From contig NW_014040510.1 in the NCBI RefSeq assembly GCF_001186125.1, positions 1 through 53,537 on the forward strand: 53,537 nt of DNA. The letters run 5' to 3'. This stretch comes from Sphaeroforma arctica JP610 (lineage: Eukaryota). The notes below the pieces were generated by a model, which had not been told where the DNA came from, made no database searches, and saw only the letters and a program-made list of their open reading frames with translations. Below, in pieces: positions 13,144-43,500 of this stretch. The position numbers were made by a program, and so were the translations under genes. Within the stretch, counting starts at the first letter, position 1. Each line of letters starts with the position of its first letter.

Positions 13144-13673
13144 GGTTGATGTATAGTTTGTGATGCGATGAAGCTCACCAAACTCCTCTTATCATTGTGA
13201 AAGTTTCACATCTTGCATTGTTATTCGAGCATATATTACGTACATGTGAATTTTTCCAGTGATAATTTTATTCATATTTTCCTGTGTACACAGTAGGATT
13301 TTAGTAGGGGGTTTAAAATTATTTTAGGAGTGTAAAATAAACTAAATATATACAGATTTATTACATAGCGTTCTAAATTGAACACATATTACAGTGATTA
13401 CTATTTACCAGCTTTATCATAACTACTACATGATCGTCACATACAATCACAGGTTATGAGGCACAGTCCTCACGACTGCTATTAATTCTACTTGCACAAG
13501 TGCTTTTTTTAGCACCTTCCGCAGTCAAACCCTCTATGCTAAACAATATAGTTATTATACTGCGTCTATTACTTGAGCTAGCTGCACACTTTCCCTGTTC
13601 CAGTCAGAGGTTGTGAGCAACATGAAGTGCCGAGGGTCACTCGCTATATCTATCTCATCGTCCACTGCACTAA

Positions 13674-21707: not shown

Positions 21708-22420
21708 TTAAAGCTGTCCACAATCGGCAACAACAATCTTGGCAGAGGTCTTTCCGCTGTCTGATCCATATCCTTCGATCTTCTGGACAACATCCATACC
21801 CTCAGTAACGCTTCCGAAAACAACGTGCTTGCCATCCAACCACGCAGTCTTAACGGTGCACAGGAAAAACTGACTTCCGTTGGTACCGGGTCCGGCGTTA
21901 GCCATGGACAGGATTCCAGGTCCGGTGTGCTTTAACTCAAAGTTCTCATCAGCGAACTTGGCTCCGTAGATGGACTTACCGCCGGTACCGTTTCCGGCGG
22001 TGAAGTCACCACCCTGGCACATGAAGTTCTTGATAACTCTGTGGAAACTGGATCCCTTGAATCCGAAACCTGTCATAGAAAATAAATAGAACAATATAGT
22101 TGTTGAGTACAACAGATCAATTTACTTGTCAATTATGGGTAGAGTCAACAACCAGCAAGCGTCGTAGTACAATAACAACTAGTATTCAAAAGCAGTTGGT
22201 GTGTGGTATGACCAGCGAAGTTCTAGCACTCATAAGCACCGCGGACAACGGACGTACTGGCGTGCCTCCAGACGAATATTAACATACCCTTCTCGCCGGT
22301 GCACAATGCACGGAAGTTCTCAGCGGTCTTGGGTACTACATCAGCACGAAGAGTCATGACAATGCGGCCAAGGGCAGCACCGTTTGCGGTGATATCGAAG
22401 AAAACTCTGGGGTTGCTCAT
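21708..22420 (-). CDS. PPIA: Cytosolic cyclophilin-A-type peptidyl-prolyl isomerase (2 exons, 164 aa)
   Basis: Exons 22420-22288 and 22069-21708. [69 protein letters not shown]. Confidence 0.97.
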
Positions 22421-23775
22421 GATGATTAATAGATTGTGTATGTATCGAATACTGAGATTTTAGTTCCAGTGTTAGTTTGTTTATATTTTATTTTAGTTTA
22501 CATCTATTATCTGCATTACTGCAGAGCGCCGTGGGAAAAAGTACCGAACACCATACTCGTCTTAAATTCACAAGTCAGAAGCATACGACAAACGCGCCAA
22601 AAGATATAAATGTCTGAAAATAGGAAAAGGTCACGCTTTACCTACAGTAGGCGTCTATTCGCGAACGATTTGAAGAAAACTGTAAAAACGTAAACGAAAA
22701 GATGATCACTTTTTTTATAGCCTTCTAAATTGAAACACTTTTTTGTAGTTTTTGTATTTATTTATTTATATATTTATTTTTATTTTCTATTTTTTTTATA
22801 AAACATTAAGGAATGATTTTTCTAAATCGGAAATACTTTTTACTATTTTTTTAAATACTTTCCATAGTTTGTTTTTTAAAGAAGTGCAAATGTAGGAACT
22901 ATGTATTTAGTGTACAATTTGTTATCAGTTGGCTTACTTGTGGCTATGGTAAATACAACAATTGAACAATGTTGTATTTAAATATTTATGGAAGTACACT
23001 TGTACAGTACATACAAATTTACTCATTTATTTAAATAGCGACAGTCCCACAAGTGGCCAACACTCCCAAGGCTCCATCATCAAAAATAAATAGAATAACA
23101 CAGAATTGCCTAATATGTAAATCAAACCTTTGGCGCGCTTTGAGGTAGCCGTGTGGCCTGTGGCTTTGGCTACCTGTAAGACTGTGAGGCCTGTGCAATT
23201 GTGGGCTGTGAACGCCTGCGGCCTACCATAGTCCATGGGGCGTGCAGGCCACAAATTATTATTTTTGTAGGCGAAAGTCGAGTAAACGTAATCCGCATCG
23301 CAAATCCCATACTGAATTGCATTAGAATGCATATAGTGTGTCAGGCTGTGAGTGATGATGTGCGAATCTAATCTTAGCATAGTAGGCCGCGTCACTTAGT
23401 ATCACGAATATCTTACTGTTTTAAAGCTGCTATTATCACAGGTTGACACCAACTGTTCTTATGTAGACGTGTGTGTATGTATCGATAATCAATTATATCT
23501 GCGAAGCCATATCCCTCGAAATAAGAGCTTTGATCTGTCGTAATTCTAAGCACACACGGACTTTAATGAGCTCTCGTGACAGTGTAAGCGATGGTGCCGC
23601 TAGCAAGGGATGGTTAACAATCGATGCCGGTGTTCGACAATGAGCGACTAATTCATGTTCCCATTTGTAGACTTGCTTTGTTATATGTGGTTTGTACTTG
23701 TCGAATACGAAATTTCATGTCTCCCGTCATAGGCCCAATAATTGATCTCGCGACACTGGCCAGATTAGTAGTAAG

Positions 23776-23837
23776 TTAGGTGAATGACTGAACCAACCAG
23801 CCTAGTACTAGGCTGATTGGTTCAGTGATTCGCCTAA
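23776..23837. repeat. Near-perfect 62-bp palindrome (hairpin/MITE-like)
   Basis: ttaggtgaatgactgaaccaaccagcctagt|actaggctgattggttcagtgattcgcctaa; a related shorter copy lies at 29582-29621. Confidence 0.85.
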
Positions 23838-24799
23838 TCATTGAAAGTTATACTTCACTACTAGTGTGCATCAAGCTGCATTCAAGATTGTCTCATTAGC
23901 GTCTAAATACTGTCGTATACGGTGTCGTACTTTCTTGGCTAGCTCTAACAAGTCGGGAGCCAGTAGATAAATGAGATAAAACCATAGCACTTTACTCACT
24001 AGATTAATAAACAGGGTCTGAGGCTATGCCAGAATGAACAAATCTTCTTTAGCAAAGTGCGCGCCAATAATTATTGGCTGTAAAATACTGATAATAATTA
24101 TTGCTAATGTGTATATAAACACACATAGGTAGTTCATTTGCACGTGTGTGCATATAAGTATCCGTTTAGTAATTGAAGTTGCAGACCTGCTTGGGTTGAA
24201 TCGCCCAATATTAGTGTACTGTTATACCTAGCTGGTGTGAGCAAGCTACATCACACTGCACATAGTTTCATGCACACAACACACACGCTACAGATATTTT
24301 CTCGATCAAACTATCAAACTTTATTCCTTGATGAATGGGCAAGCTTCAAAAGATTGATGACAGTATTTGATGCTTATAGGGTGAACGGTAAGCTAGTAAA
24401 TGGCAAGCGCACTCAAAATAAGGATCTAAGAGCATATCAGGGTGTGGTCGTCTGTGCATGTCTGATGCATGTAGTTGATGCATTTATTTATTTTGTTTTT
24501 GCTAGCAAGTCTATAATAGTGTGTGTGTGCACCTCGCGTAGCTTTACTGATTAATATTTTGAAATGATAAAAATTTAACAATAGAAATGAACCTGGTGTT
24601 AACAGACGTCTCCAAGGCGTGTTATGATACTTGTGTATGTTGACCTGATACATGTAGTTGATGCATGAAAAAAATGTTTTGCTAGTACGTTTGTAGTAGC
24701 GTGTATGTACTTCGAATTACTATATTGATTAATATTTTAATATGTCCATTCAGAACAAGAGAAATTTTCCAGGATTGGGCGTCACCAAAGTGTGTTGTA

Positions 24800-25900
24800 A
24801 GGATGATGTAGCGTTGTTTTTTTTAATGTTGAAATAGCAGAGATGCTGATGCTCTTATGTACGGATAAAGATTTTGCCTACATGGTATCACCGACGGAGA
24901 TAGAGAAACAACTGCTTACGCTACAACTACAGGATCACATAGATTTTATATGAGCGTACAATGGTGCAATCGTTGTTGAATCGTACTTGACAACAAATGG
25001 TGTAGCATGTATCGCCAGTGTATTTTACAATCGTAATTTTAAGAGGATATGGGTAGTTAGTCTTTTGGACAAGACTGAATTCCAGTGCGATGAGTCGGAA
25101 TCAAAGTTCCTAACGGTTTATCAGATGCAATTTTTACGTGCTGTATTTGTCTTCGGATTTGGCAATACAGTGCTCATGACTGCTTTACTACTTTAGAGCG
25201 ATTATACAGTTCGTACCAGTACAGTATGACAGTACAGAGATTTTGCCCTTGGCTTGCATGATATCGAACAGACAAAGAAGGGCAAGTCACTGTCGGTTCT
25301 GCGTTTGTGTATAAGTAGAAAGCTGTACCTGAAAGAGCGAAAGAGATACATAGGTGTGACTTGAATATGACAAAGTTTCTGTTCTTCTGTCAGCCCGCTT
25401 TGTTTTGTTTTATGAGTCAATCGCTGTGTGGATGCATACGACGGCCTGATAGATATCTATCTGCGGTGAAGATGTAATAACTATTGAATATGAGATAGAC
25501 CATATGTAAAGTACACTGACTCCAGCACAGCGAGAAATGATCAGCGTAACAGACAGACAGTGTTATGGAAGAGTATTTTTTTTAGCATTATACATTAGAC
25601 TGGTATAGTCAACGAAGTTATCGGCTTGAAACACAGACGTGTGGAGTTCGCGCATTGGATTGGCACCGATTGTGCAATCTAGCATATTCTCTTGTATACT
25701 AAACTCTACACTTCAACTGTATAGTATGTTATACTAAAGAGGTATTGTTACACCACAACGATTTGAACCCAGATTACTTAGGCACCAACTTACACACAGA
25801 AAATGCAGTACTAAATAATTGTCTATCCCCGAAGTACCTACTTCTTTACTGGTAGCTGCAATGACATTACACTTAATGCATGTAATCAAGATGTCATCGA
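24800..25900 (+). pseudogene. Decayed SWIM-finger plus YqaJ-like nuclease ORF (putative ISL2EU second ORF)
   Basis: Reconstructed across frameshifts: RIWVV..C-I-C-x-GFGNT-C-S..TALLL (about 25142-25193), WMHTT-PD...ITIEY (about 25430-25490), EVIGLKHRRVEFAHW (about 25615-25658). Boundaries approximate. Confidence 0.45.
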
Positions 25901-26429
25901 GAAGGTGGTCGTTAATAGTAGCATTATCAAAGTATATTTTGGTACAGCTTTTTATACACCCCGACAAACTAAGGAACAATATCATCGTTCCATCGTCGAC
26001 TTGGTAACTGGCTATGTGAAGCTGAACGACGTTTTACAGAGAAAGCATCACATGTTGATGTACATCAAGGGCGAGGTTTCGCGCAGTTACCGGCACGACA
26101 AGATGATCATTATATGCGTAGCGATAATCGATAAGGGTAAATCAACAAAGTCGTGGTTTGTGGACAACGTTCAAGATGCGAGCTGTTTGTTGCCACCAGA
26201 TAAACAGAAACGTATTGCCACTTATGATAAAGAAGAAGAAACAAAGGTGTTTGGAGTGAGCCCATGTCTCAACCATTCATAGGGATAATATTATTTATTT
26301 CAAAAGAGACAAGTTACAAGTGAAATTAACAAGGGGGTTCAGTGAGCATCCATGCTGCGGGCAAGAACTTATGGCACTCGTTCATGTGTGCAGAACAGCT
26401 AAAGTAGCATAAACAAGTTGTTAATAGAA

Positions 26430-28390
26430 GCTTTATTCAACATCAAACTACGTCTAAATCGTTATCACTCTCGTGTGAAACATAAGAATCTATTCCATCC
26501 AATGATATATCCAAATCCATTGGGTCTTCACCCTGTTCTGGTTTTGTCATTCACCAATCTGTGATTGGTGCATCTAAGTTCACCATTCTACGTGCCACCT
26601 GCGCTTCATAGTGAGCTATATCTATCCCTGACAATGTTTTTTTCTGACCCCAAAACCAACATAGTTGCGCAACTCCTCCATATTGCGTTCGATTGATAGT
26701 AGTTCTCTTCCGTGCTATATTACGATCTGCCCGTGACCGTTCCTCACTAAACGCATATTGACCAATATGTTTCTATCTAGGTTTGCATACGCATATGCCG
26801 AGTTTCTCCAACTCGTAACGATCTGTCAAACTTCACCGTTGGAAATGATTTGTAATCGCTATAATACACAAATTGTGCCTCCACGTCACAGCCCGCCACT
26901 CTGTAGTATCCACATTATTGTTCAAATGAAGTGCAATACGATTACGCTCAAGCGTGTATTTGGCTGTCCGATGTCTATGTTTGAATACATAACTTGTGGC
27001 TATGACGAATGTGATATGCTACTTTGCTGTATCCCCAGCAACGTTGAATTGACACTTCCATACGCCCCGGGCTGCTATGTGACTTTCGAAAAATACAAAT
27101 AAATACTATAAATTGATGCCATGTCGATGACATACTATTCTTTCCTCCGATCGTAATAGGCGCATCATTACCTGACTCCTCCTTCCTATCAACTAGTGCA
27201 CAGTCCTCGAGAATACCAATCTGTATACATTTCTGTCGCATTTTCTGATTCCACATAGACATGTAGCCGAGTCCGTTGTTTTTGTTTAGCCATTCGAATA
27301 AAGCACGAAGTATTTGTAGATTCTGTTGACCAATTTTCTCCTTGCAGAAACGATCATCCTTCAGCCTCTCTATTCATTTGATCATACTATCAGGAGCTAT
27401 TCAAGTAGCGTATGAAACGACAGGTGCCGTTTCAGGTGTTGTTGCTTTAGTTCCATACGGGTTTAGGATCGGGCTGATTGTGTTTAATTGCTCATTTGAT
27501 AGATGTACACCAGAATTCTTGAGTTGTTCGCTCAGTGCAGCTTTAATAGAGATTAAATGTTCGAGTTCGCCATGTGATTTGCGTTGTGATGATGTTCTGG
27601 TATTCTCATTGTTCGTGTAAGGTAAAAATCTAGGCCATTCTTTTGGTATCAAACGATCTGTTCGTGTAAGGTACAAATCTAGGCCATTCTTTTGGTATCA
27701 AACGATCACGTTTGAATGTCTGATTGTTGAACTGTTTCCACTTTCCTAGAAAGTGATGCCTATATACACATACTAGTGCCCTCGGTTTCTTTGCACAAGC
27801 AGAGCCTTTATTCGCTTATTAAAAACCCTGCTATTTATCCTTAACAAGTATTCTAACCCATTGAAGCACGCATGCTTCATCTGATGGAAGATACAAGCCA
27901 TCAGTGCATTCGATACTTTCATTGCAAACTTAAGTACCAAATACCAATACGGGGACTCTCTTGAGAGCAAAGTCCTTATCCCACTGGCACTCTCTAAAAG
28001 GAAGCGTTCGAAATAAGTTCGTGTGTAGGTGCAAATTTCTACCGCCGTTCGTGAAATGTAGATTCTTTAGTTTGAAGTGTTTGGCGTTCACAAAGTGCTG
28101 TTTGTTCGACCTACTACATTCATCTTATTTGAACTTACTAGTATCTAATCCTCAGTAAGATGAGGATTAATATCTCCTAACCACTGGCGTACATGCAATG
28201 TCTCACTTTCAACGTTGCCATATCACATATCACCTTTCGGTAGAAATATCTTGCGAAAGAACCCCTTTAGACAATCGCGTACACCACAGTCACATCATTT
28301 CTGTACGAACCCTCGTTTCAACGTTCTTCCTCCTATCTGTCTCTTCGCCCTATGGACTACCACACCAGGTAAAACCATCCTTACAAATGG
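26430..28390 (-). pseudogene. Decayed DDE_Tnp_4 (Harbinger/ISL2EU-type) transposase
   Basis: Ordered minus-strand fragments: THAP-like VCVYRHHF (about 27760), VDTTE (26913-26899), YYSDYKSFPTVKF (26866-26828), QYAFSEE..RNIARKR..IERNMEELRNY (26693-26661), VNLDAPI (26583-26563). Stops, frameshifts and internal deletions present; ends approximate. Confidence 0.6.
27610..27707 (+). repeat. 49-bp tandem duplication
   Basis: tgttcgtgtaaggta(a/c)aaatctaggccattcttttggtatcaaacgatc twice. Confidence 0.92.
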
Positions 28391-28621
28391 CGGCAGTATG
28401 CACTGAAAGCTCTGTATGTACATACATATATACATATTCCGTTGAATTTTATATTCACAGTCAAGAATACTATCAAATTTTGGCGCGTGCTTCGCTATAG
28501 AATACTTGTTAATTCCGGGACGGCCCAGATTTTATCTAAAATTCAGTGGGTCAGATGCTCTTCATACTTTGCAGTAAGCTAGTTCGAAAATTAATCGGTT
28601 CTAGCAGTTCATCCCTAACAT

Positions 28622-28950
28622 TGTAGACAAAAGTGCCCTGGACAAAGATTTAGGACCGGACCAGAGGACCGGACCTAAGTGGATTATTTCAGGATCGGAC
28701 CAGGGAACCGGACCAGACAGTGGAATAGAGAACTTTGTGAGAAAGAAGGATGACTCATCGGGTGTCATCATAATTTAGTAACTGAGAGACCAGAACCAAA
28801 GACACATGCAGGTATTTTCACAATCACCCGTTGTTGGAGAAAATTTTGTCCCATGTAGAAACGTGATTAATAAATACAGAAGGCGCGCCGTTCACAACGG
28901 CACTTCTGACTGAGTTCACTTATTCAGACGTAACACTCTTTTACTAAGTG
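28622..28950 (+). mobile_element. LTR lacking its last approximately 20 bp, related to the LTR at 32405-32777
   Basis: Starts TGTAG; shares GGACC repeats, gtcatcataatttagtaac, aataaatacag and acggcacttctgactg..taacactcttt with the other LTRs. Confidence 0.88.
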
Positions 28951-31462
28951 CAATCTATGTATACTGTATTGTATTGAACCTTCGTTGAGTGCGCTGTACC
29001 CAAGCGCGGAGTGTGGAGTGCTTTGTCCGTCAAATAAATATAGCTATTCCTAGCTGGAGGCGCAACAGATAGACGTGCCTTATCTACGGATGCCTGATTG
29101 ATGACTGAACGGTTTGAATCCGTGTCAACGAGGGTGCCCATATCATGGTCGTTCACTTGTAAAGTAATATATACAAGATTATCGGCAGGGAACAATTTAT
29201 CCTTTACTGCAAATATGTTGCAGTATGACCAAATGATATGCACATGTTCACGTCAGACACCCAAACATCTCAATCCGAAACTATCTCTTTTTTCCATCCT
29301 GATGGTCTTTGTTCGGCTTCTATCAACTCATCTTCACTCTGTACGTGTGACTCGAACCTCTGCTGGTGGTTTATCAGGCTACTGAATACCGTTCACTAGG
29401 TTAATATCACGAGAGCGGAAGTTATTACCCAACCCCTGTAGCGCACGCGTCGATGTGCCCGTGGCCGATGTATGTTGTATAGAAGCTTACCAGGTTGTGT
29501 ACGGTCACCCTTGTTGGTCTGGGGTGAACAGCGGTTTGCATGCCCTGGTCCCGAAGGGAGGCCTTCCCGGTTTTATGATAAATTAGGCGAATGACTGAAC
29601 CATCCAAACTATTCACCTAATCTGTATACTACAGTGTATTTGCATCAGCACGCAAGTACATGAACGCAAAATACGTCACACATCTGCTCAGATGAGTAGT
29701 CTAGCCAATGTGGATGCATACGAAGAGTATCGCGGTAGTATGTTCCTCCCACAGCTTGACGTGTAAGATTAATCACATCATGATTACGATACTCCTGTAA
29801 AGTATTTTCATACTGTCGCATTTCCATGAATTCTACTTTGCGTTCAAAATCACAAATCTGTGTATCAAGCGATGATACCAAAGGTCTCAACTTCATACAC
29901 GCTAACACCAGTCTGTATGCGTTATCCTCCAAGTTCTGCTCTTCTGTGCATAAAACGAGAGCAGTGGCTTCACCAAAGAACTGCCAATTTTGCTCGTTCT
30001 CCACGATAGGTCCCTAAAAGAACCGGGTCTGACTTGTAAAACTACACACTCTTATGCCAGTCTAGAAAATTTTCATGCACCTGTATCTACTGCGGAGTAT
30101 CCGAATAATAGCTGTCCTGTGGATTATAGGCGGCCAATATATTTATTTATTTTGGGTGTTCGTTTGTCGAACGTCACTGAGAAAAGCATATTTTCAGTCC
30201 TATTAGATGCTCGAATTAGACTATGTATCGCACGCGCATCTTCTGTGCGTCCCTCTACTTCTGTGTGCATCATTAGTCGAATCAGATGGAAGGCTTGCAT
30301 CTATATCTTTGGTGCTGTAGACTCAGTGATACAAGTCTCTACAGGCTCTGATAGCTTACAGCGTAAGTAGTGATGGTAGCGATGTTCGTGATAAACAGAG
30401 AAGTGTTTGTGATATGTCAGCATATCAACAGGTCCATACGCAGCATCTTGACAATTCTTCTTCATCTCTTCCGGTGAACGTGGACGACTATGGCTTTGTA
30501 GCTTGTCACGAAATGGATTCGCTACTACCTGATCTTTATTAAGTGGTTGCCGTGGAGATTTCATCTCTCTGCGAAGTGCATCAAATGAACGCTTTGCTGA
30601 CGACAACAAATCATGCGGAATGTCCATTGCCAAGTGCAAATCCGCTGGGTTTAAATAGATACTGACAGAGTATTTCATCATGGTTTTCGATTCCTGAGTA
30701 TTACTAGGGCCACAAAGTTCTATCGGGATCCCATAAGGTGCCGGAATTTATTGTGCTCGATTTTGAGCGTATTTCAACGTACACTACCTGCGAGTATTGT
30801 GTACATTATCATGTTGTGCCACCTGATGTATAGGCTTCGTGCGGCAAATTATACGTTTCACTGGGCTGATTTGCTTCATCTCGTCACCCTCGCTGTTAGG
30901 CAATTGGTCAGTTGGTGTCGTTCATGCCTGCGTTGGGTATTGAGGTGCATAGAATACTTATCCTCAAAAGCCGTCTGAATCGTGCTATTGTCAGTAGTCG
31001 AGTTAACGTCCGCAGAGGAAATGTCACGAAGTTAGTGGAGTTTCCCCCGAATTAGCTGAATGATCTCCGTGGCTTCCTGTACATGCATTGTCAGCATTTG
31101 ATAAGTGGCCATCCTTGTGTATTAGCAATCCACTCATGCTGATATTTGGCCTTATTTGACATAGAAATCGAGTGTTGGGCTTCAAAAACTGAACAGACAA
31201 GTGAAACGTGGATTTCTGCCTTAACTTCATCCTTGGGTGTCGGATCCGTAGAAAAAGCTGTCTCCACCTTAGCGCAAATTAAAGGAAGTTAACGATGAAC
31301 TCCAAGCAGTCGTTTCCACAGCCTCTCACAAGCTTGCTTGCCCACCTCGGGTACCAGTGCAGTAGTAGGTTCCTTCATTACGGTAACCTAAGAAAAGTTT
31401 AACTTTGGTCACTTGAAATGTAGTCAAAACCGAGTAGCGCTTAGTAAAGAGTGTTAGGTCTG
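28951..31462 (-). mobile_element. Truncated, degenerate Gypsy remnant (LTR 3' tip, gag, protease) related to the 32.4-kb element
   Basis: Minus-strand fragments LNPADLHLAM, KRSFDALRREMKSP, CITESTA, DFERKVEFMEMRQYEN, YRDTLRMHP and VYITLQVN..LVDTDSNRS parallel the plus-strand gag/protease at 33.6-35.3 kb; LTR end (..ttttgactaca) at 31462-31419. Confidence 0.88.
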
Positions 31463-32404
31463 TAGTTCTTAGTCGTATTTGCTAATGTTAAATTATCCTA
31501 AGTTCTACTTGCTAAGATTTAAAATATTCTTGAAGAAACATGCACGTAAAGAGGGATGTCTTGATCTGCGGAAGGAAACAACACACCTGCACTTAACAGC
31601 CTATATCACGGACTACACAACGTGTGGCTGAAATGACTGAACAATTGAAACCGTACGAGGCGGGGACATAAGCAAGTCTCACTGGTACCACGGAACACTC
31701 CCACTTTTCTCACCTTGAAGCATGCTCTGCCCACACACCAGAGGGATAAGGACCAAAGACTCGGTTGTAGAGCCACCATTGAGATGCGTTTTTCTAAGCC
31801 AAGTTGAGATCAACCGAGAGCAGCGGTCAAGACTGGCTCGAGAACTCCCGTCATAATATAATTTTACCCGACAATACAATATGCTTATACCTCTGAAGAA
31901 AGCACAATAGGTCTAATATGTGCTCTGACAGCCCTGTATTTATGTGTCCCCAATTTTCTACAGTGGTTTGGAAGAAGAAGAAAAAGGTATAAAAGAAACC
32001 GAAAACAACAAATAACTATTGATAGAGTTCGAAAACAGGTACTCTCTGGACTAAATATTTTGTGCACCACATCCTCGAAACAACACAAATGCGCACGTGT
32101 CAAAGGATTGAGCACTCATACTATCAGCTCAGATATACACTCAGAAGTGAAACCACAGACAGAAAGAAATATCACGCTTGATAAATCGAACAAGGATAAA
32201 CCGTTTGACACGCCCAAGCTACAACAGAAAATGTCGAATGGGAGGCAAACAATGATGTTCAAATTTAGGGCCGTTCTAAGCCTGAAAAAGAAGGTCTACT
32301 ATAGGATTTTCTGAGTACTTATCAGTATTACGATTTCTTGGAAATCGATTTTCCAACAATAAAGCGATGCCATACACATGCACAAATACGCTATGTGAGA
32401 CAGA

Positions 32405-32777
32405 TGTGGACAAAGTACTCTGGACGGTAAGGATCAGAGGGCCCAACCTACAAGTGTAATTTTAGGACCGGACCAGAGGACAGGACCTAAGTAGAATATT
32501 TCAGGACCGTACTCAGAGGGACCGGACCTAATATTAAGACAAAGAATTTTGTATGAAAGATTGATGACTCAAGAGGTGTCATCATAATTTAGTAACCAAA
32601 GACAAAACATAGATAGGGGTATTTTTCATAATTGCCTGTTGTTAGAGAAAATCTCGTTCCACACAGGAACGTGATAATAAATACAGCAGACGCGCCGATC
32701 ATAAACGGCACTTCTGACTGGGTTCGCTTATTTCAGACTTAACACTCTTTATTAAGTGTTACTTGCTTTTGACCACA
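32405..32777 (+). repeat. 5' LTR (373 bp)
   Basis: TGTGG...CCACA termini; contains AATAAA; matches 40224-40451 and 28622-28950. Confidence 0.92.
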
Positions 32778-32917
32778 TTTTTAAGCGACCGAACTACTGA
32801 ATTTATTATACTACGTTCTTTAAAGGTTAAAGTAACTAAAAAGCAAATCAGTTTACTTTTAGTATTTTTTTTTTCTTCACAACGATGACGGGACACGAGA
32901 CTAGACCGTAGCCTACG

Positions 32918-35078
32918 GTGGGTAAGCAAGCCTGTGACCAGCTTCTGAAACGGTTGCTTGGAACGATTCGCCATTTAACCGAGCTATGCGATAAGGTGGA
33001 TACAGCACGTGCCAAGCAACCTGCACCCGAAGACGACGAGAAGGTGGGAATCCATTTGGAATTGACTCATTTGCTTTTGGAGGCCCAGTACTCAATCCGA
33101 ACCTTGGGTAGGCTTAGCCGAGCCCAAGCATGGATTGCGGATCAAGCAGGGTACCTAAATATGTTGATGCATTTGAAGGGAGCAAAGGAAAAGAGTCGCC
33201 TCATTCAAGAGCAACTCCGCCAACTCTGTCAATTGTCACTAGCAGATATTGACATGTATATGCCCCAGGACACGGCCCAGGCGAAAGTGAATGATGAATT
33301 TTCTGCGACTGAGGTCAAATCGGTTCCTCAATACCCAACACAAGCAGAGCTACCACCAACCGACCAGTCCCCTGACATCGGGGCTATCAAAAGGAAGAAA
33401 ATTAGCCAAGTAAAGCGCAGGATTGGCCGCACGAAGCCCGTACCTCAAGTGGCTCCTTACGAGAATGTCCATGTTACGCGCAGAGAGCGATTGCTGAAGA
33501 ACGCTCAAAATCGAGCCCAGACGATTCCGACTCCTGATGAGATGCCGGCTGATGGTCTGGATTGGTATCAGGAATCGACCACTTTGGTGAAATCACCTGG
33601 TAGAATTTTTTGGACCCAGCGGACTTACATTTGGATATGGCCACCCCTCAAAATTGGTCATCGACGGCGAAGCGGTCCTTTGAGGCATTTCGCAGAGTGA
33701 TGAAATCTCCACACCAACAGCCTATCAAGCGAATTTATTCAGGGACAAATTACAATAGCATCGTCGTCCGCAATCTTCAGAAGAAAGGAAGGAGAACTGC
33801 CAGGATAATGCAAATGTTCCTATCGATACGCTGGCATACTTTCCTGTTCACCACGATCGTTACCTAGAAGACCCGCAGGATGTGAAACGATGTAAGATAT
33901 CACCGCCTACGGAGGCGTGTATTACTGAATCTACCGCGGCAGAGATGAAAACACAGGTATTCCTTCTCACCCAACGTATGATGCAAGCAGAAGCTGAAGG
34001 ACTCACTGAGGACATTCGTTCGTTGCAGGGCTTAATTCGCACATCCAACGAGACGCTGAAGACTTGCTCAAAAACGGTAGAAAAACGGACATCCAAGAAA
34101 TGGCCACCTAATCCACAGGGCAGCTATTATTTGGATAATCCGCAGAAGAAACAGTTTCATGCGTTTATTTTGGATTGGCATAAAAATGTGAAATTTCGCA
34201 AATTAGACCCGACTCATATGCCGATGGGCCTACATAGGGCACTACAGAAAGAAAGAGCGCCCAAGGCGCTTTTGGATTTTATTGTGGAGAACGAATTAAA
34301 ATTGCATTCCATGTCGTTTCTGGACGCCACTGCTTATATTGTACGCACACACGAACAAGATATGGAGGACAACGTATACAGAAATGTATTGGTTTGTATG
34401 AAGTTAAACCCTTTGGTTCCACTAGAGACACAACTTCGGGATTTTGAACGCAAAGTAAACTTTATGAAGATGCGACAGTATGAGAACCCACTACATGTAT
34501 ACCGCAACCATGGTATGCTCAACCTAATCAATCAAGCTGTGAGGGGTGCATATCACCGTGATACTCTTCGTATGCACCCTAATAGGCGAGAATATTCCGC
34601 GGCACAAATGCGTGATGTATTTCGGGTGAGTATTGATAAGGCGGAAGAACACCGTCGGGCAAGCCTTCCCGACCACTGTAAATCCCCGGGGGTTCACGTT
34701 CACGCACACTGAACGCGTGTGGAGGCCAACACACGAGCTAATCCGCATGCGCCGCCAGCATCGAATCCTAAGGCCCGATGTCGGTCATGTGAGCAGAATC
34801 TCCCTCCTGGCCCAGTACACGCACCACGTTGCCTTAAGTTACTGCGAGCACCGAACGGAAACGAACACGGGCAGCCATACGCAACGTGGGGGTGCGCCAC
34901 CATACCGTTCATCGGCTGGGGCAACATCCACGCGCACACGACGTCAGATGAAGTAGGAGAGAGTGAGGTGATGAATATTCATGATTTGGTCGACGAGTCG
35001 TATGTCGACAGTGAAGATGAGTTGATGGAGGCTGCGCAAGGGCCAGCCGATAGGGAAGATGAGCCAAGCTCAAATTGA
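32918..35078 (+). pseudogene. gag-like ORF broken by frameshifts
   Basis: Overlapping ORF pieces 32918-33700, 33610-33867, 33882-34712, 34719-35078 between LTR and protease; Cys/His knuckle-like CRSC...H..RC near 34780-34835. Confidence 0.75.
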
Positions 35079-35169: not shown

Positions 35170-36900
35170 CCGTGTATATATAACGTTACAAGTCAACGGA
35201 CATGCGATGAACACACTCATTGATACGGGGGCGAACCGCTCCGATATTACTCAGACATCCGCAGCAAAGGCGCACCTGTCTATTACACCACCAGCTAAGG
35301 ACAGTTACATATACTTGGCAGACAAAGCTTTTCGCACTCCGCGCCTGGGCAAGACACATGCCACGACGGTTTAATATGGTACAAAGTCTGCTACAGGTTG
35401 TACGTTTGAACTTATGAATTTACCCGATAATATTGATGTAATTCTGGGAATGGATTTTATGGGCGTCGACATTCGCATGGCACCAGACTTGTCCGAGCCT
35501 GAGGATATACGGCAACGACTACGCCAGTACTTAGATGCCAACGAGACCATTTTGGATGCGGCTCGATGTACTTTACCAGGCAGCGAATTATCCCTCCCCA
35601 TACCTCGCGATAAACTTTTGGGCCTTCGACGACAAACACGGAACTTTGTGTCAGACAAGTACAAACCACACGTCACGCAACAGATACATAAATGGGAACA
35701 TGTATTGATGACTAAACGTCGTACGTCGGCGTCAGTGGTCAACCTGCTATTACTAGCAGTACCATCATTTACACCATCAGGGGAACTCATTAAGCTTCGG
35801 GTGTGTTTGGATTTGCGACAGATCAACGCCTTTATTCCGGGCGACCAGTTTACGTTACCGAAGGTCAATGAGATTATTAGTAACTTAAGAGGCAAGCGGT
35901 ATTATACCACATTAGATTTATCGGCTGCATATCATCGCCTTCCCGTACACGAAGACTCACAACATATGTTCTCGTTTACTTGGGACAGTCACCAATACTT
36001 CTTCACTTCGGCCCCATTCGGATTGTCGACACTCACGTCTCAATTCCAGCGCACAATCAGTAATCTGATGGCGGGTTTAGACGTGCAGTGCTACGTCGAT
36101 GACCTTATAATTGCATCTGATAACTACGAGAAACATATTGCAACTGTGGAAGAGGTCATCCGACGGCTTACCGAGAACAGCTTCAGGCTTAACCAGAAGA
36201 AGCATCACTTTGCAGTAAGCGAGGTTATGGTCCTGGGGAAGAAGATTTCTGCGAAAGGAATTAACGTTGATCATGATAAACAACAACGGCTGATCGACTG
36301 GCCAGTGCCGCGATGCCAAAGGGACATAGCATCTGCATTGGGGTTGGCGAACTTTCTACATGAGCACTTACCTAACTTTGCACATAAAGTGGCCCCACAA
36401 CGATTGTTCTCGAAACTCAAGCCGAAGGAACCGATTGGGGATCGTTGGAAACCAGAACATCAATAGGCATGGATCAGATGAAGGAAGCAATCATATCTAC
36501 GGTACGGTTAAATTTTCCGGTTGACGGGGTTCCACTCGAATTAGAGACTGATGCAAGTGATTATGGTATCGGCGGTGCATTATTTCAGTTAATTGGCGGC
36601 CACAAGCACTACCTGATGTTCTTTTTAACGACTCTCAACAAGGCGCAGCAGATATACGCGACACCAATGAAGGAATTGTTAGCGCGCACATATGCATTGG
36701 TCCACTTCAATGATCATTTAATATGCCAGCGCTTCACTGTGCACACGGACCACAGAGTGCTGATTTACATGAACACACAACTGAAATTGAACAGCATGCT
36801 GCAACGATGGCATCACATCATTGCGCAATTCAACTTCGTGATAACACATGTCCCAGGTGAACTGAATGAATTGCCAGACATGTGGAACCGGGTTCATGAG
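35170..36900 (+). pseudogene. pol: aspartic protease, reverse transcriptase and RNase H (frameshifted)
   Basis: Protease LIDTGANRS..VILGMDF; RT LRVCLDLRQIN, LDLSAAYHRL, APFGL, YVDD; RNase H ETDASDYGIGGALFQ, KELLA, TDH, HVPGELN. Confidence 0.93.
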
Positions 36901-36944
36901 GCACGGCGGATATCAACTTTCCTGCTATCTTCTACACATCGTGC

Positions 36945-37337
36945 TGGAAGTTGTATCCCGATTTCTTTGATCAGGTTTAAAAACACTTTGGACCTAAAGA
37001 CGTTGACGCCTTTGCATCAAGCCACAATGCTCAGCTACGACAATACTGGTCATACGATAAAGACGGAGGCGCTTTTAAATTTGACTGGAGTAAGTACAGT
37101 GCGTGGATGAATCCACCATGGCGCCTTATACACAAGGTAATTTGTAAAGTATTGTCGGACAAGGCGTCCGCGACAGTGTGTCTCCCGTTGAACACACGGG
37201 CGCCATGGTTCCCTCTGCTTCTATCGATGATGCAAGCAGATCCATTGCTGATCCCGCGTACAGCCCATACGTTCTTGAAGCATGGCACACAGGCATGTGG
37301 TAAGTATCCATGGGAACATACGGTGGTAGTGCGTATT
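36945..37337 (+). pseudogene. Dam-like N6-adenine DNA methyltransferase domain within pol
   Basis: One frame reads WKLYPDFFDQV*KHFGPKDVDAFASSHNAQLRQYWS..AFKFDWSKYSAWMNPPWRLIHKVICKV..TVCLP...PWFPLL; DAFAS at 37005-37019, NPPW at 37110-37121; premature TAA at 36978-36980. Confidence 0.88.
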
Positions 37338-38042
37338 GGCCCTCCATCGGGTTATAAAGTTTTTCCATCATTTTGGCGTAACTTGGGTCTCGAAGTACCT
37401 GTGTGTGAGGAAACTAATGATCGTTATCAAGAGACATGGGCGCAACTAGCCATGACCAGACGTACACGCCAGATTGCGGAACAGGTGCCTGAAATTTGTG
37501 CGGGGGCGACGGTGCTCAATCATCCTGGACACGAAGAAGCTAATCGCCGGGTACAACTTACTTGGCAATTTCATGAACAAGGACATCCTGCTCCAGCGGT
37601 CACAGTGCAACAGATGCGAGACGATGGACAGAATTGGGACCAAATGCTTCCAAAAACGGAAGAGATCCGGAAATATGACACACATTTGTATTGGCCCTCC
37701 ATCGGGTTATAAAGTTTTTCCATCATTTTGGCGTAACTTGGGTCTCGAAGTACCTGTGTGTGAGGAAGCTAATGATTGTTATCAAGAGACATGGGCGCAA
37801 CTAGCCATGACCAGACGTACATGCCAGATTGCGGAACAGGTGCCTGAAATTTGTGCGGGGGCGACGATGCTCAATCATCCTGGGCACGAAGAAGCTAATC
37901 GCCGGGTACAACTTACTTGGCAATTTCATGAACAAGGACATCCTGCTCCAGCGGTCACAGTGCAACAGATGCGAGACGATGGACAGAATTGGGACCAAAT
38001 GCTTCCAATAACGGAAGAGGTCCGGAGATATGTCGCACATTT
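37333..38042 (+). repeat. 355-bp tandem duplication of the MTase-integrase linker and the integrase His-His zinc-binding region
   Basis: Copies 37333-37687 and 37688-38042 are nearly identical; both encode FHEQGHPAPAVTVQQMRDDGQNWDQM. Confidence 0.95.
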
Positions 38043-38089
38043 TTAGGTAATGACACTATGAAGAAGAAATTTAATCCTTTAATGAGTAT

Positions 38090-38535
38090 TACGGCACGTA
38101 ATTCATGGGATCACATTCAAATGGATCTCATTCTGATGACAGTAACATCTACTAAAGGCAACAAGTTTATTCTACATGTCTGGATGTGGCATCCGGATAC
38201 TCTATTATACGGGCGCTGCCTGTAAAAGATGCTAAGACGGTGGCGACAGAGTTAGTATTGGTATTTGGTGAGCATGGCTTTCCTCGGAAAATTCAGAGTG
38301 ATGAGGGGACTGAATTTGTCAACAACATTGTCAGTTCTATAACACGAGCACTCGGAATTATACACAAGACATCTCAGCCATATCGTCCTCAAACATTGGG
38401 TGCGGCAGAGCGCCGACACAAAGAAATTCAGAAATGTGTGCGCGCGCTTTGTGTTGGCTGTCCGGAATTGTGGGATGAACGCCTACCTTTTACTATGCTT
38501 TACCAGAACCTCCGGATATCACGTCGACACAAGTC
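38090..38535 (+). pseudogene. DDE (rve) integrase core, 3'-truncated
   Basis: WDHIQMDLI, GFPRKIQSDEGTEFVN, PYRPQTLGAAERRHK, WDERLP. Confidence 0.93.
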
Positions 38536-39400
38536 TGTAATAGCCGGGTCTCCATATTAGACTCTATGTTATAAACGTACTCTTAAGCAGTACGTAAACT
38601 ATAAATGTACTCTTAATAGTACAAGGAACTTAAGTTTCCTAAATGGTTTTTAACGGTTTTATTAATTAATACCTTTTGCATTTTACATATCAGATATTTG
38701 GACGTGGCCATTAAAAGGCCTCAGTAAAATACCAGACATAAGAGTTGGTCTAGTTCTATTAATAGAACTATATTTACTTTCCAACTTTATTTATATCTGA
38801 TTACTTCGGTAGCGAGATGGCTCAACCGAATATAGGTTTCTAGGGACTAATAACGTTACCTAGTTGATCCTCCGATCAGCCAACTAGATGTGCCAGTCTG
38901 ATGAAGGCTAAGTCGGTAATTCTTGATAGTGGCAAGTTATTGGTTAAGACAATAACTAAGGACGTCAAGAGTATTTTTCATTTTTCATTTCTTTTTTCTA
39001 AAGATAGGATTTTATGAGTCTCTCGGATTCGCCCCAGAATAGAGCGACAACAAAACACTAAATAAAATCCCTTCGGCGGAAACAGTACTGAGAGGATTAT
39101 ATATAGGCAATGTCTCAGCCTCACAATCCCTCAGAGTATTGCTGTTTTCACGAGGCAAACCTAACTTTATTGTTTATTTATATCGATATTTACACGATAC
39201 TTAGAATTTACCGACGCGTTTATTTATTCTAAGGCATTTGTACCGCCTTTATTAGACCGAATCTTCAAACGAAGCATACCTATCTTTACTAAAAGTCTCA
39301 TTTCGTTTATTTACTTTGAAATTTTCACGATACTTAGAATTTACCTACGCGTTTATTTATTCTAAGGCGTTAATATCGCTTTGAGAGACCGAATCTTACA
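38536..39400. mobile_element. Candidate LTR of an unrelated family inserted at the integrase break
   Basis: Begins TGTAA exactly where integrase homology ends and finishes TTACA; non-coding and hairpin-rich; no target-site duplication visible. Confidence 0.5.
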
Positions 39401-40223: not shown

Positions 40224-40451
40224 TGAAAGATTGATAACTTAAAGAGGTATCATCATAATTTAGTAACCAGGAGACAAAAACCATAGGTACGTGTATTTTT
40301 CATAATTACCCGTTGATAGAGAAAATATTGTTTCGCACAGGAACGTGATAATAAATACAGTAGACGCGCCGATCATAAACGGTACTTCTGACTGAGTTCA
40401 CTTATTTCAAACTTAACACTCTTTATTAAGTGTTGCTTGGTTTTGACCACA
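40224..40451 (+). repeat. 3' LTR, 5'-truncated
   Basis: Aligns to about 32554-32777; ends ttttgaccaca followed by CAGA. Confidence 0.92.
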
Positions 40452-40525
40452 CAGATTTACTCTACATACCGGCAGCCACAGCTACTTTTGTTTGTCGAGA
40501 AGTGCATATAGCGTTGTATATATAT

Positions 40526-40867: not shown

Positions 40868-43500
40868 CCACCATATGCCCCGACGATGTAATGGAGGCAA
40901 TACTACGCTATCCCAATAAGGGACCTGGCCCCGACGGGATCCATATCCTCCTCCTGAAGGCCGCAGTGAAGCGCTCTACCAAACGCCGGACATTAAGACG
41001 CCCCGACGCCAATAGCCCACTGATTAGACTCCTTGCCGAAGCATTCACTGAGCTACTGAAGGCGGGTACCTTCCCCGCAGCCCTGAACTGCAGCCTCCTG
41101 ACAGCGCACCCAAAGAAAGCCGATGCGGGTATCACCTCCCCCGCCGACTTCCGCCCCATCACGCTTACGCAAATAGTCAGACGCATCTTTGAAAAGTGCT
41201 TTCTTAATCTGATTACGAGCCACCCCGGCTCTGCTACCCATGCTACCCAAGCTGGCTTCAAATCACGGTACTCCTGTCATACCCAAGCACTTGCCACCAA
41301 GGAATCTGAGATACAGTCAGAAGAGAAGTGTAACGACGTCTGTCTGGACATAACTAAGGCATACGACAAGGTCGCTCTCCCACGCCTATGGGTACTTCTG
41401 CGTCACGCTGGAATGCCCAAAAACTGGATCAACTGCCTCTGCACGCTATTTGAAAGGGTCCCTACCCGAGTGACATACCGCGGTACGCTCTCGTCTCTAT
41501 TCTATAGAACGAATGGCATCCTACAAGGCTCAATCGTCGGCCCCCAGCTCTTTATTATCTACATGGATTCCTTAGCTGTCACGCTAGCACAATTTCGGCC
41601 CAAGCTCCTCCGCTCTTATTTATTTGTCGATGACACATGGATCCAAGCCCCTCGATCGGTTTCGCTCCAGCCCTTCTTAGATGACATTGATACGTGGTGA
41701 CACAAATCTGGCCTCGAACAGGGTGTCATTAAACCCCGAGTACGATCTACCGACTTGCGACACGCGGCGCCAACCATCCATATAAATGGTGAGCTTATCA
41801 CGCCGACGATTGCAGACGCACCTTGGAACACACGTTACCTCCCCCTGAAACTGGCGCCCACACATGCCGAACTGAAACACTCCAAATACCTGAGGTTCCC
41901 ACTCTCTCACGGAGTACCAGGAATCAACCTCGCTAGACATATGTAATCCCTGGTTGCAGCATTGTCACTGGGTATCGCCTCTTTCCGCGCTTATGGCTTC
42001 CATGGCTTCAGCTGGCGACACCCCCGCAACCGACTGGTGATGTTCAAAACATTCATCCTGTCCACGGCTACATATGGGCTGAACATTATTGCCTGGGCTC
42101 CGCCTATATGGAAGGATGCGTTGGACCCCCTATTCGAGCGCTTTAACTCAGTACTCATTCAAGCAGCAGTCATCATCACGGGCACTAAATACCCTCGTTT
42201 CCCAAACATCAAACAAACTTACTTCACTTTTGTGGCCTGCTCCCCGCGCGACCATTCGCGGACTACCTCGGAGGTTGCCTGGGAATACAACTCGACTCAA
42301 TGGCAAGCACAAATCCACTTACCCCTCTGACGCAACCCGCCTGGGCCCACGATAAACCATCACTGTGCTTCCCGTACAGTATCTATGCTCACCTGAAAAC
42401 TGTACACAAAATCACGGGCGGGTGTACACCCGACCATGTAGCCCTCCGCCAACGCTGTGACGTCATCAGGAAGAACTCAACAAAACGTTGGTCCAACAAG
42501 GAGATCGCGGCAATGGCCCGGCGCCAATACTACTACCAACTGGTTATGGTTATGGGTAAACCGCCAACCTCAAACCGAGACACAGCCAGACACGACAGTT
42601 TCAATCGCTGCTTCGAGTCTACACCAATTCGGCTCTGTGCTATGATTGTAACGAATACGTACATGTTCACATTGCTCGACTACCGCACCGACAGCTATCT
42701 CTGCCCTGTCTGCCCCGGTAGCCACAAGTTCGCTACCAGCCATTTTACCTGCATCCAACAACTGATTCGACGCATCCTGGTAGGCCCGAAACTGCCGCCC
42801 ATTGACCCTGACCTCCTTCAGCAATTACAGGAGTGCCACGACTACCACGGTATCTGGACCCTCCACGAACACCTTGGATGTTTTCTCCAGCATGCTGAAG
42901 AACCCCCGTACCCACACCCGTCCCTGACACATCAACAGATGTTCCCCATACCCCAGCTTATCACGCTGTTGAAGTACTACTTCCAAATATCGGTTCAAAC
43001 CAAATCATCGCGCTTGTTGGTTCCGACTATGATACTTTCGATCCAGGCCAGCCAACACATACCGAATTCATCCGTGATCTGGTGCGGCATTGGCTTACCC
43101 CCATCCTCGCTTCTCGACCGGATTATGACGGATAACCTGGTCCTTCTCGGTATTTCATACTCTGCACTAGCCCATTCCGCGGCACTACACGGCGCAGACC
43201 CGATCCGTACCACAGAGGGGGGTACTCTACTTAGTAGGTCAGCAAGCGAATATAGGGAACATTCGATAGTAACAGTGTTTTGTCAACACCGGCCCGAATT
43301 GACTCAGCATATATCTTCCATTGTCGACTCACTTGGCCCAAGCTTCAAACGGGAATTTACTGACCACTTATTCCCATCAACCTTTCCTGAACCACTTTTC
43401 CCATCAATCTTTCCTGAACCACTACAGCGACTATGAGAGCCATACCATATGTTCATACATTGTATCATACATACTTGCCATTTTTGAAATAAATAAAATT
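40868..43500 (+). mobile_element. Non-LTR retrotransposon (LINE) ORF2, degenerate, 5' part lost in the gap
   Basis: KGPGPDGI, DFRPITL, QAGFK, LDITKAYDKV, GILQGSIVGPQLF, FVDD, KYL; downstream CPVC..H..C finger; stops and frameshifts; aaataaataaaa near 43487. Confidence 0.92.

What the first reader, a model, noticed from the sequence alone, without database searches (positions are those of the whole stretch)
36945..37337. Integrase-type Gypsy LTR retrotransposon carrying a DIRS-style N6-adenine DNA methyltransferase
Seen: immediately after RNase H and before the integrase zinc finger, one frame encodes W-x-L...FG..VDAFAS..N..L..Y.S..AF..DW....WMNPPW.LI.KV..K....P....PWFP.L. The ORF track hides its N-terminal half because of a frameshift near 36900-36945 and a TAA at 36978. 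The same element has TG..CA direct LTRs, a 4-bp TSD (CAGA) and a DDE integrase, and I see no tyrosine recombinase. Established: the DLFAS...NPPF/W pattern is the Dam-like amino-methyltransferase found after RNase H in DIRS1-type elements, whereas canonical Ty3/Gypsy pol is PR-RT-RH-IN. Inference: this is a Gypsy lineage with a PR-RT-RH-MTase-IN polyprotein that might mark its own cDNA or LTR with 6mA for protection or expression. This copy is inactive, and I cannot verify whether the architecture is already described.
Basis: partly seen in the sequence, partly recalled or inferred. Interest (0 to 1): 0.9.

Follow-up and report, generated by a model that had tools for sequence, protein, structure and literature searches.

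The report
Broken gypsy retrotransposon carrying adenine methyltransferase
This is a broken copy of a gypsy-type jumping gene that carries an adenine-methyltransferase domain between its RNase H and integrase; the design is real and conserved, the host is likely an ichthyosporean protist, and a 2026 preprint already describes such elements there, though what the domain methylates is still untested.

Summary
36942-37337 is a Dam-family amino-methyltransferase (Pfam PF05869, 41.8 bits, cut-off 28.1) with intact DAFA and NPPW motifs, lying between RNase H and a DDE integrase of a Ty3/Gypsy element. It is not a one-off DIRS insert: 13 of 150 top homologues carry RT-Dam-integrase in one chain, the RT groups with these and apart from DIRS-like proteins (SH-aLRT 99), and other copies in sequencing runs lack this copy's stop. 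One correction: the 3' LTR is only a 228-bp remnant. The host is likely an ichthyosporean; the Dam's sister is a Sphaeroforma arctica protein. bioRxiv 10.64898/2026.05.21.726589 already defines this "Ichthyosporean DAM-LTR lineage", so the architecture is known; this scan also noted it before on other DNA (23 findings). What remains open is the substrate: the fold's nearest solved relative is the RNA cap methyltransferase CAPAM/PCIF1, not E. coli or T4 Dam, and the preprint's DNA assay was negative. A Copia polyprotein with the same domain turned up in passing. Interest 0.3.

The parts
32401..32404 (+). left copy of the candidate 4-bp target-site duplication
   Evidence: CAGA directly before the TG start of the 5' LTR
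32405..32777 (+). 5' LTR, 373 bp, TG...CA
   Evidence: 78% like a solo LTR at 28649-28950, whose upstream flank also resembles the LTR start (by eye)
32912..34712 (+). gag-like region, two ORFs (32912-33700, 33759-34712); inferred from position, no Pfam family above cut-off
   Evidence: conserved as protein in a second copy on the - strand
35171..35356 (+). aspartic protease, N-terminal part; broken downstream
   Evidence: Pfam gag-asp_proteas 30.4 bits
35375..36466 (+). reverse transcriptase ORF (core about 35741-36262)
   Evidence: Pfam RVT_1 78.4 bits; best solved match Ty3 RT, E 2e-28
36472..36900 (+). RNase H, in another frame than RT
   Evidence: Pfam RT_RNaseH 80.7 bits; tblastn with P0001
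36942..37337 (+). Dam-family (PCIF1-like) N6-adenine methyltransferase domain; DAFA and NPPW intact; stop at 36978 and a frame change just upstream
37333..38045 (+). integrase zinc-finger region, present twice as a 355-bp tandem duplication (two His seen, Cys pair not recognisable here)
38043..38536 (+). DDE integrase core, split by a frame change near 38180, C-terminus lost
   Evidence: Pfam rve 37 bits
38536..39400 (.). unrelated TG...CA-ended repeat of far higher depth that replaces the 3' end of pol (not part of the element proper)
   Evidence: depth 30-300 times that of the pol bins and loose ends at both borders; ends
40224..40451 (+). 3' LTR remnant, 228 bp, 89% identical to the 3' part of the 5' LTR
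40452..40455 (+). right copy of the candidate 4-bp target-site duplication

Best explanation
This is a decayed Ty3/Gypsy LTR retrotransposon with a Dam-family methyltransferase domain between RNase H and integrase, likely a member of the published ichthyosporean DAM-LTR lineage, whose intact relatives would carry the domain into the particle and are predicted to N6-methylate adenines on the element's own replication intermediates. Shown: the domain, its position, its intact SAM-binding and catalytic motifs, one-chain RT-RH-Dam-IN proteins in relatives, and conservation of Dam at the level of RT. Inferred: pol is made as one polyprotein and cut by the element's protease; the roughly 130-residue Dam has no target-recognition domain of its own, so it would find its substrate by being tethered to RT/RNase H or integrase inside the particle; the methylated adenines on new cDNA would then be picked up by the host AMT1 system and keep new insertions in transcription-permissive chromatin (the preprint's model). 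Odds: identity as a DAM-LTR about 0.93; this cis-acting DNA-marking mechanism about 0.45. This copy itself is dead.
For: Pfam hits and order. 13 of 150 best Dam homologues have RT, Dam and integrase in that order in one chain by my own profiles; Pfam independently gives rve or Integrase_H2C2 for 10 of these 13. P0001 is the best or near-best match for protease, RT, RNase H, Dam and integrase alike (35, 38, 45, 44, 45% identity), which is what co-inheritance predicts. RT tree: 18-row group of integrase-bearing Dam proteins incl. the window, SH-aLRT 99, apart from 38 DIRS-like rows. Dam tree: sister to S. arctica SARC_07150 (98), inside an 18-row group with three Abeoforma whisleri proteins and no DIRS-like row (95). 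NPP[W/F] is kept in 16 of the 17 other members of that group. Mean pairwise identity in 8 intact relatives: RT 0.46, Dam 0.43, integrase 0.36 (7 of the 8), flanks 0.14-0.18. In 4 of 4 runs laid, the contigs covering 36978 lack the stop, and Dam-bin depth is in the range of the RT/RNase H bins in 3 of 4 runs. Host gene 10921-13185: nearest named relative is EukProt CFRG1228T1 at 75%, next best 39-44% (CFRG = Creolimax, an ichthyosporean, is recalled). The preprint reports more 6mA and more transcription on DAM-LTRs than on other LTRs in S. arctica and A. whisleri (whole text read).
Against: No activity has been shown: the preprint's expression of eukaryotic DAMs in dam-minus E. coli gave no 6mA gain. 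Iyer et al. (PMC4738411, passages) judged DIRS MTases likely inactive. The nearest solved fold is an RNA enzyme. The 6mA enrichment is a correlation that host AMT1 could produce on any transcribed element. Relatives were found with Dam as query, which inflates Dam identity; no dN/dS was computed. Both trees are quick searches with SH-aLRT only, and the RT tree holds no Dam-less Gypsy references. In run X7 the Dam bins are shallower (5.7-7.2) than the RT/RNase H bins (20-33). The pairing of the two LTRs rests on a 4-bp match across 11% divergence and an intervening foreign repeat. The host species is inferred, not shown.
Confidence: 0.8

Rival explanations
1. Same element, but the domain is an RNA methyltransferase of the CAPAM/PCIF1 kind: it would N6-methylate an adenosine of the element's own transcript (cap-adjacent or in the primer/template hybrid), affecting stability, translation or packaging rather than chromatin.
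For: Foldseek: the only 2 matches with E<=0.001 among 500 counted are human CAPAM. Wide structural search: zebrafish CAPAM Z 9.6, rmsd 2.9, 116 of 119 residues aligned, the only 1 of 48,161 chains at Z>=8; E. coli Dam 6.8 and T4 Dam 6.7 tie with rRNA methyltransferases at 6.5-7.0. Iyer et al. place the DIRS MTase in the PCIF1 clade. No DNA methylation in the preprint's E. coli test; the preprint text never mentions PCIF1 or CAPAM.
Against: A shared fold shows no substrate; sequence identity to CAPAM is 18-25% and a profile search of solved structures found no methyltransferase; no phage Dam of the PF05869 type appeared among the structural hits, so CAPAM may win by default. The sequence profile hits are phage DNA methyltransferases. 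The model covers only the methyltransferase core, with no counterpart of CAPAM's cap-binding helical domain (recalled). DAM-LTR DNA is enriched in 6mA.
Confidence: 0.25
2. The domain is kept as a non-catalytic binding module (SAM-fold nucleic-acid binder or spacer) that helps RT or integrase or steers integration, and the 6mA on these elements comes from the host alone.
For: Negative heterologous assay; Iyer et al.'s judgement of DIRS copies; S. arctica SARC_07150 lacks the catalytic Asn; earlier unverified scan notes report conserved but motif-less versions in other hosts.
Against: NPP[W/F] in 16 of 17 clade members and in 108 of 150 hits, DxFA in 135 of 150: hard to explain without catalysis in this lineage.
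Confidence: 0.2
3. A one-off: a DIRS fragment nested in an ordinary Gypsy copy, or a misassembly.
For: The copy is heavily rearranged; no listed contig spans the element; no genome was available to count full copies.
Against: One-chain relatives; Dam groups with integrase-bearing elements; only this one Dam match in the six frames of the window; a contig of a different copy bridges RNase H and Dam (record 25, 36839-37058, 15 other letters) and one identical to the window bridges Dam and zinc finger (record 26).
Confidence: 0.03

Closest known systems
Ichthyosporean DAM-LTR lineage (Pirum gemmata, Abeoforma whisleri, Sphaeroforma arctica) of Fernandez-Moreno et al., bioRxiv 10.64898/2026.05.21.726589 (whole main text read; figures and supplements not seen)
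   Same: Ty3/Gypsy RT with DDE integrase and a Dam domain with the Asn-Pro-Pro pocket; nearest named homologues are from A. whisleri and S. arctica; host gene points to an ichthyosporean.
   Different: This copy is dead and rearranged. The text does not state the Dam's position for this lineage (it does for the Chloro-Ochrophyta clade: between RT and integrase), and the sequence lists are in closed supplements, so I could not confirm that this very family is in their set.
DIRS1-type tyrosine-recombinase retrotransposons with an MT domain after RNase H (PMC4738411 and PMC5890265, passages)
   Same: Same Dam-like domain, same place right after RNase H; 45 DIRS-like proteins are in the Dam tree.
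   Different: Here the domain is followed by a DDE integrase, there is a protease, LTRs are direct, no tyrosine recombinase was hit, and RT lies outside the DIRS-like rows.
CAPAM/PCIF1 cap-specific adenosine N6-methyltransferase (PDB 6irv, 6irx)
   Same: Closest solved fold of the domain; same clade according to Iyer et al..
   Different: 18-25% identity; a cellular 480-residue RNA enzyme with extra domains, against a bare 130-residue core inside a polyprotein.
KnitGypsy-Dnmt3 of Klebsormidium (PMC5890265, passages)
   Same: Gypsy pol that has taken in a DNA methyltransferase.
   Different: Cytosine C5 enzyme of an unrelated family, separate capture.

Membership tests
Ty3/Gypsy LTR retrotransposon | pol order protease, RT, RNase H, integrase | tested here: met
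   (with Dam inserted between RNase H and integrase)
Ty3/Gypsy LTR retrotransposon | RT of Ty3/Gypsy type | tested here: met
   best solved match Ty3 RT, E 2e-28, of 18 hits; groups with integrase-bearing rows, SH-aLRT 99; no Dam-less Gypsy references in the tree
Ty3/Gypsy LTR retrotransposon | DDE integrase | tested here: met
   Pfam rve 37 bits, cut-off 32.6; D, D, E seen in the translation
Ty3/Gypsy LTR retrotransposon | two direct TG...CA LTRs with target-site duplication | tested here: inconclusive
   5' LTR whole; 3' LTR a 228-bp remnant at 89%; 4-bp match on both sides
Ty3/Gypsy LTR retrotransposon | primer-binding site and polypurine tract | tested here: inconclusive
   no TGG-type site after the 5' LTR; a 7-nt self-complement is not significant; no purine tract before the 3' remnant
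DAM-LTR, ichthyosporean lineage | Dam domain at E<1e-5 in an LTR element | tested here: met
   E 7.8e-9 for the natural ORF, 1.1e-10 read through the stop
DAM-LTR, ichthyosporean lineage | Asn-Pro-Pro-aromatic catalytic pocket | tested here: met
   NPPW in the window
DAM-LTR, ichthyosporean lineage | Dam clusters with Abeoforma/Sphaeroforma/Pirum sequences | tested here: met
   sister to SARC_07150 (98), group with three Abeoforma proteins (95); no Pirum sequence among the 20 proteins looked up
DAM-LTR, ichthyosporean lineage | ichthyosporean host | tested here: met
   host antiporter 75% to CFRG1228T1, 39-44% to the next hits; one gene, clade level only; the meaning of the CFRG prefix is recalled
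DAM-LTR, ichthyosporean lineage | no chromodomain | not testable with these tools
   the integrase C-terminus is lost in this copy
DAM-LTR, ichthyosporean lineage | 6mA enrichment and transcription of insertions | not testable with these tools
   no modification data; no listed run on record as RNA
DIRS1-type element | tyrosine recombinase instead of DDE integrase | tested here: not met
   no such family in 22 stretches scanned, which include all + strand ORFs of 120 aa or more in the element; rve present
DIRS1-type element | RT in the DIRS clade | tested here: not met
DIRS1-type element | MT domain after RNase H | tested here: met

The most novel reading that the evidence does not exclude
The 'Dam' of DAM-LTRs is not a DNA methylase at all but a stripped-down CAPAM/PCIF1-type enzyme that the retrotransposon carries to methylate its own RNA or RNA-DNA intermediate inside the particle; this would explain the failed E. 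coli DNA assay, and the module has spread beyond Gypsy into Copia (P0075).
Probability: 0.25. Interest if true: 0.75.

Novelty: already known. Interest (0 to 1): 0.3.

Why it matters
The architecture shows retrotransposons borrowing a methyltransferase, possibly to tap the host's 6mA mark for active chromatin, but that was published as a preprint in May 2026 for this very group of hosts, so this dead copy adds little. What it does add is a pointer for the open question of substrate: a confident model whose nearest solved relative is the RNA cap methyltransferase, which suggests assaying RNA and hybrids, and a set of intact natural polyproteins (P0001, P0012 and others) on which to do so.

Tried and rejected
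Word-index homologue searches with the Dam ORF (longer proteins) and with the RT ORF (E<=1e-20) returned nothing; the exhaustive HMMER search did (2090 hits at E<=0.001). A single-sequence fold was poor (pLDDT 56.8) and was not used. A profile search of PDB sequences found no methyltransferase. No genome is held for this window, so no copy count, no dN/dS and no check of the host's AMT1. A second, narrower read-laying over the Dam could not be obtained, so differences among copies within the domain are known only from the 40 best-supported rows. A locus search with the clade alignment had no stretch conserved enough. No RNA holder was listed: no evidence on expression. Self-priming of the Tf1 kind (recalled): a 7-nt complement between the bases after the 5' LTR and the LTR exists, but 11.5% of 200 shuffles fold as well and the - strand copy does not show it: rejected as unsupported. 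No depletion or excess of GATC or ApT that would point to a target motif. The second copy on the - strand breaks off early in RT and cannot test for the Dam. For the Copia-Dam protein, the Atlas gave only ordinary Copia clusters under 0.9 and a metagenome scan gave 4 loci, none with Dam and Copia domains together. Literature: 8 searches; only the 2026 preprint described Dam in integrase-type LTR elements; the Chlamydomonas and Ectocarpus papers (passages) concern DIRS and DNA transposons; Repbase, GyDB, Dfam and subscription journals were not searchable.

Full report
Observation. Pfam Dam (PF05869) scores 41.8 bits (cut-off 28.1, E 1.1e-10) with X at the stop and 35.9 bits on the natural ORF behind it; PHROG 111, a phage DNA methyltransferase family, also hits (E 4.1e-8). 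Upstream lie protease, RT and RNase H, downstream an rve integrase core, all above Pfam cut-offs. tblastn with the intact relative P0001 puts RNase H at 36472-36900 in one frame and Dam plus zinc-finger region at 36909-37676 in another, confirming the frame change. A six-frame scan with my own profile finds only this Dam in the window.

Element anatomy. The 5' LTR is 32405-32777 (373 bp, TG...CA), preceded by CAGA; the 3' LTR is a remnant, 40224-40451, 89% identical to the 3' part and followed by CAGA. Between integrase core and remnant lie a TG...CA-ended repeat of much higher depth (38536-39400, no flanking duplication) and about 800 bp of low-depth DNA, so the pairing of the LTRs is likely but rests on a 4-bp match. 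The zinc-finger region is duplicated in tandem (355 bp, 97%). The copy is dead.

Is the Dam a regular part of the family? An exhaustive search with the 119-residue ORF gave 2090 hits at E<=0.001; the best 150 were listed. With profiles that I built from some of these hits, 13 of 150 have RT, Dam and integrase in that order in one chain, 10 of them among the best 22. I scanned 30 of the 150 (chosen by rank and length) with Pfam; 10 of the 13 get rve or Integrase_H2C2 there, 3 do not at E<=0.001. P0001 matches every window domain at 35-45%. In 8 intact relatives mean identity is 0.46 for RT, 0.43 for Dam, 0.36 for integrase (7 of the 8) and 0.14-0.18 for the flanks of Dam; these were found with Dam, which biases that figure up. 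I laid 4 of the 24 listed runs: all 30 bins are covered; Dam-bin depth is within or near the RT/RNase H range in 3 runs and lower in the shallowest; in 4 of 4 runs the contigs covering 36978 lack the stop, and a one-base difference near 36899 is seen in part of the depth in all 4, so both breaks are private to this copy or assembly errors. A contig of another copy bridges RNase H and Dam, and one identical to the window bridges Dam and zinc finger.

Phylogeny. RT tree, 57 rows (14 cluster duplicates and RT pieces under 125 profile positions left out; labels by domain layout, two truncated proteins labelled by hand; quick search, SH-aLRT only): the window's RT lies in an 18-row group of integrase-bearing Dam proteins (99), apart from 38 DIRS-like rows. 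Its best solved match is Ty3 RT (E 2e-28). Dam tree, 77 rows (pieces under 95 positions and Dam-only proteins below rank 30 left out): sister to P0006 (98), in an 18-row group without DIRS-like rows (95). Of 20 proteins looked up, P0006 is S. arctica SARC_07150, P0002, P0005 and P0012 are Abeoforma whisleri, the rest are unnamed or carry generic names. A host gene at 10921-13185 is 75% identical to EukProt CFRG1228T1 and 39-44% to the next hits; CFRG as Creolimax is recalled. The host is therefore likely an ichthyosporean, Sphaeroforma being the obvious guess.

What is known. bioRxiv 10.64898/2026.05.21.726589 (whole main text read; figures and supplements not seen) claims the first identification of Dam domains in non-DIRS LTR elements, defines five lineages including one in Pirum, Abeoforma and S. 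arctica with conventional Ty3/Gypsy organisation, reports more 6mA and transcription on these than on other LTRs, and reports no 6mA gain on expression in E. coli. The natural ORF here passes the E-value threshold of that screen. I could not check that this family is in their lists. Earlier scan notes report the same kind of element in at least 3 other genomes (23 findings; unverified); none overlaps this sequence.

Mechanism. Shown: DAFA and NPPW are intact here; NPP[W/F] is in 16 of 17 clade relatives and 108 of 150 hits, DxFA in 135 of 150. The model from a 45-row alignment is confident (pLDDT 92.3, pTM 0.84) and is a bare methyltransferase core. Inferred: lacking a target-recognition domain, it would depend on tethering within the pol products, hence act in cis on the element's own nucleic acid in the particle. 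I put about 0.45 on marking of cDNA or hybrid that host AMT1 then maintains, 0.25 on an RNA substrate, 0.2 on a non-catalytic role. The RNA rival comes from structure: CAPAM/PCIF1 gives the only 2 Foldseek matches at E<=0.001 and the only Z>=8 among 48,161 chains (9.6, against 6.8 for E. coli Dam and 6.7 for T4 Dam); Iyer et al. place DIRS MTases in the PCIF1 clade and thought them inactive (PMC4738411, passages); the preprint has no mention of PCIF1 or CAPAM. Against it: a fold shows no substrate, identity is 18-25%, and sequence profiles point to phage DNA methylases.

Verdict. Real feature, correctly read, already described as a kind and probably in this host group. Interest 0.3, mostly for the untested substrate question and for the Copia-Dam protein seen in passing.

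Noticed in passing
protein P0075 (1248 aa, one ENA member, 6110-bp contig; not in the window): Uninterrupted Ty1/Copia polyprotein (Pol_BBD, rve, SH3, Dam, RVT_2) with an intact Dam between integrase and RT (Pfam 48 bits); its Dam groups with chromovirus-type Dams. The preprint text has no occurrence of 'copia', one literature search and one search of scan notes showed no such element. Single sequence; two searches for relatives found none. Possibly an undescribed Copia DAM-LTR, possibly a chimera.
   Followed up: partly
proteins P0035, P0039 (2144 and 2382 aa): Layout endonuclease/exonuclease/phosphatase domain, Dam, RT, RNase H, integrase zinc finger, RT on a very long branch; may correspond to the odd Euglena-type elements of the preprint, not checked.
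   Followed up: no
protein P0001, C-terminal 100 residues: The closest all-domain relative ends in a stretch that looks by eye like a degenerate chromodomain, though Pfam gave no Chromo hit at E<=0.001; the preprint says the ichthyosporean lineage lacks chromodomains.
   Followed up: no
window 23511-31462 (- strand): Second, 67-71% identical copy of the family (LTR end, gag, protease, start of RT), interrupted at about 28950 by a + strand solo LTR of the family (28649-28950) and about 5 kb of other DNA, and cut off early in RT.
   Followed up: partly
window 36796-36837: In 3 of 4 runs, contigs match only this end of RNase H and go on with other sequence on both sides (table 7): a related LTR family; whether it carries a Dam is unknown.
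   Followed up: no
window 38536-39400: 865-bp TG...CA-ended repeat with far higher contig depth than the element and internal 133-bp repeat, likely a solo LTR of another, very abundant family.
   Followed up: partly
window 32724-32730 and 32782-32788: No tRNA-type primer site after the 5' LTR; a 7-nt complement to the LTR hints at self-priming but is not significant.
   Followed up: partly
window 40900-43436 (+): Decayed non-LTR (LINE-like) RT, Pfam RVT_1 69.5 bits, behind an assembly gap.
   Followed up: no
window 10921-13188 (-) and 21711-22340 (-): Host genes: an intronless NhaC-type Na+/H+ antiporter and a cyclophilin with one intron.
   Followed up: partly
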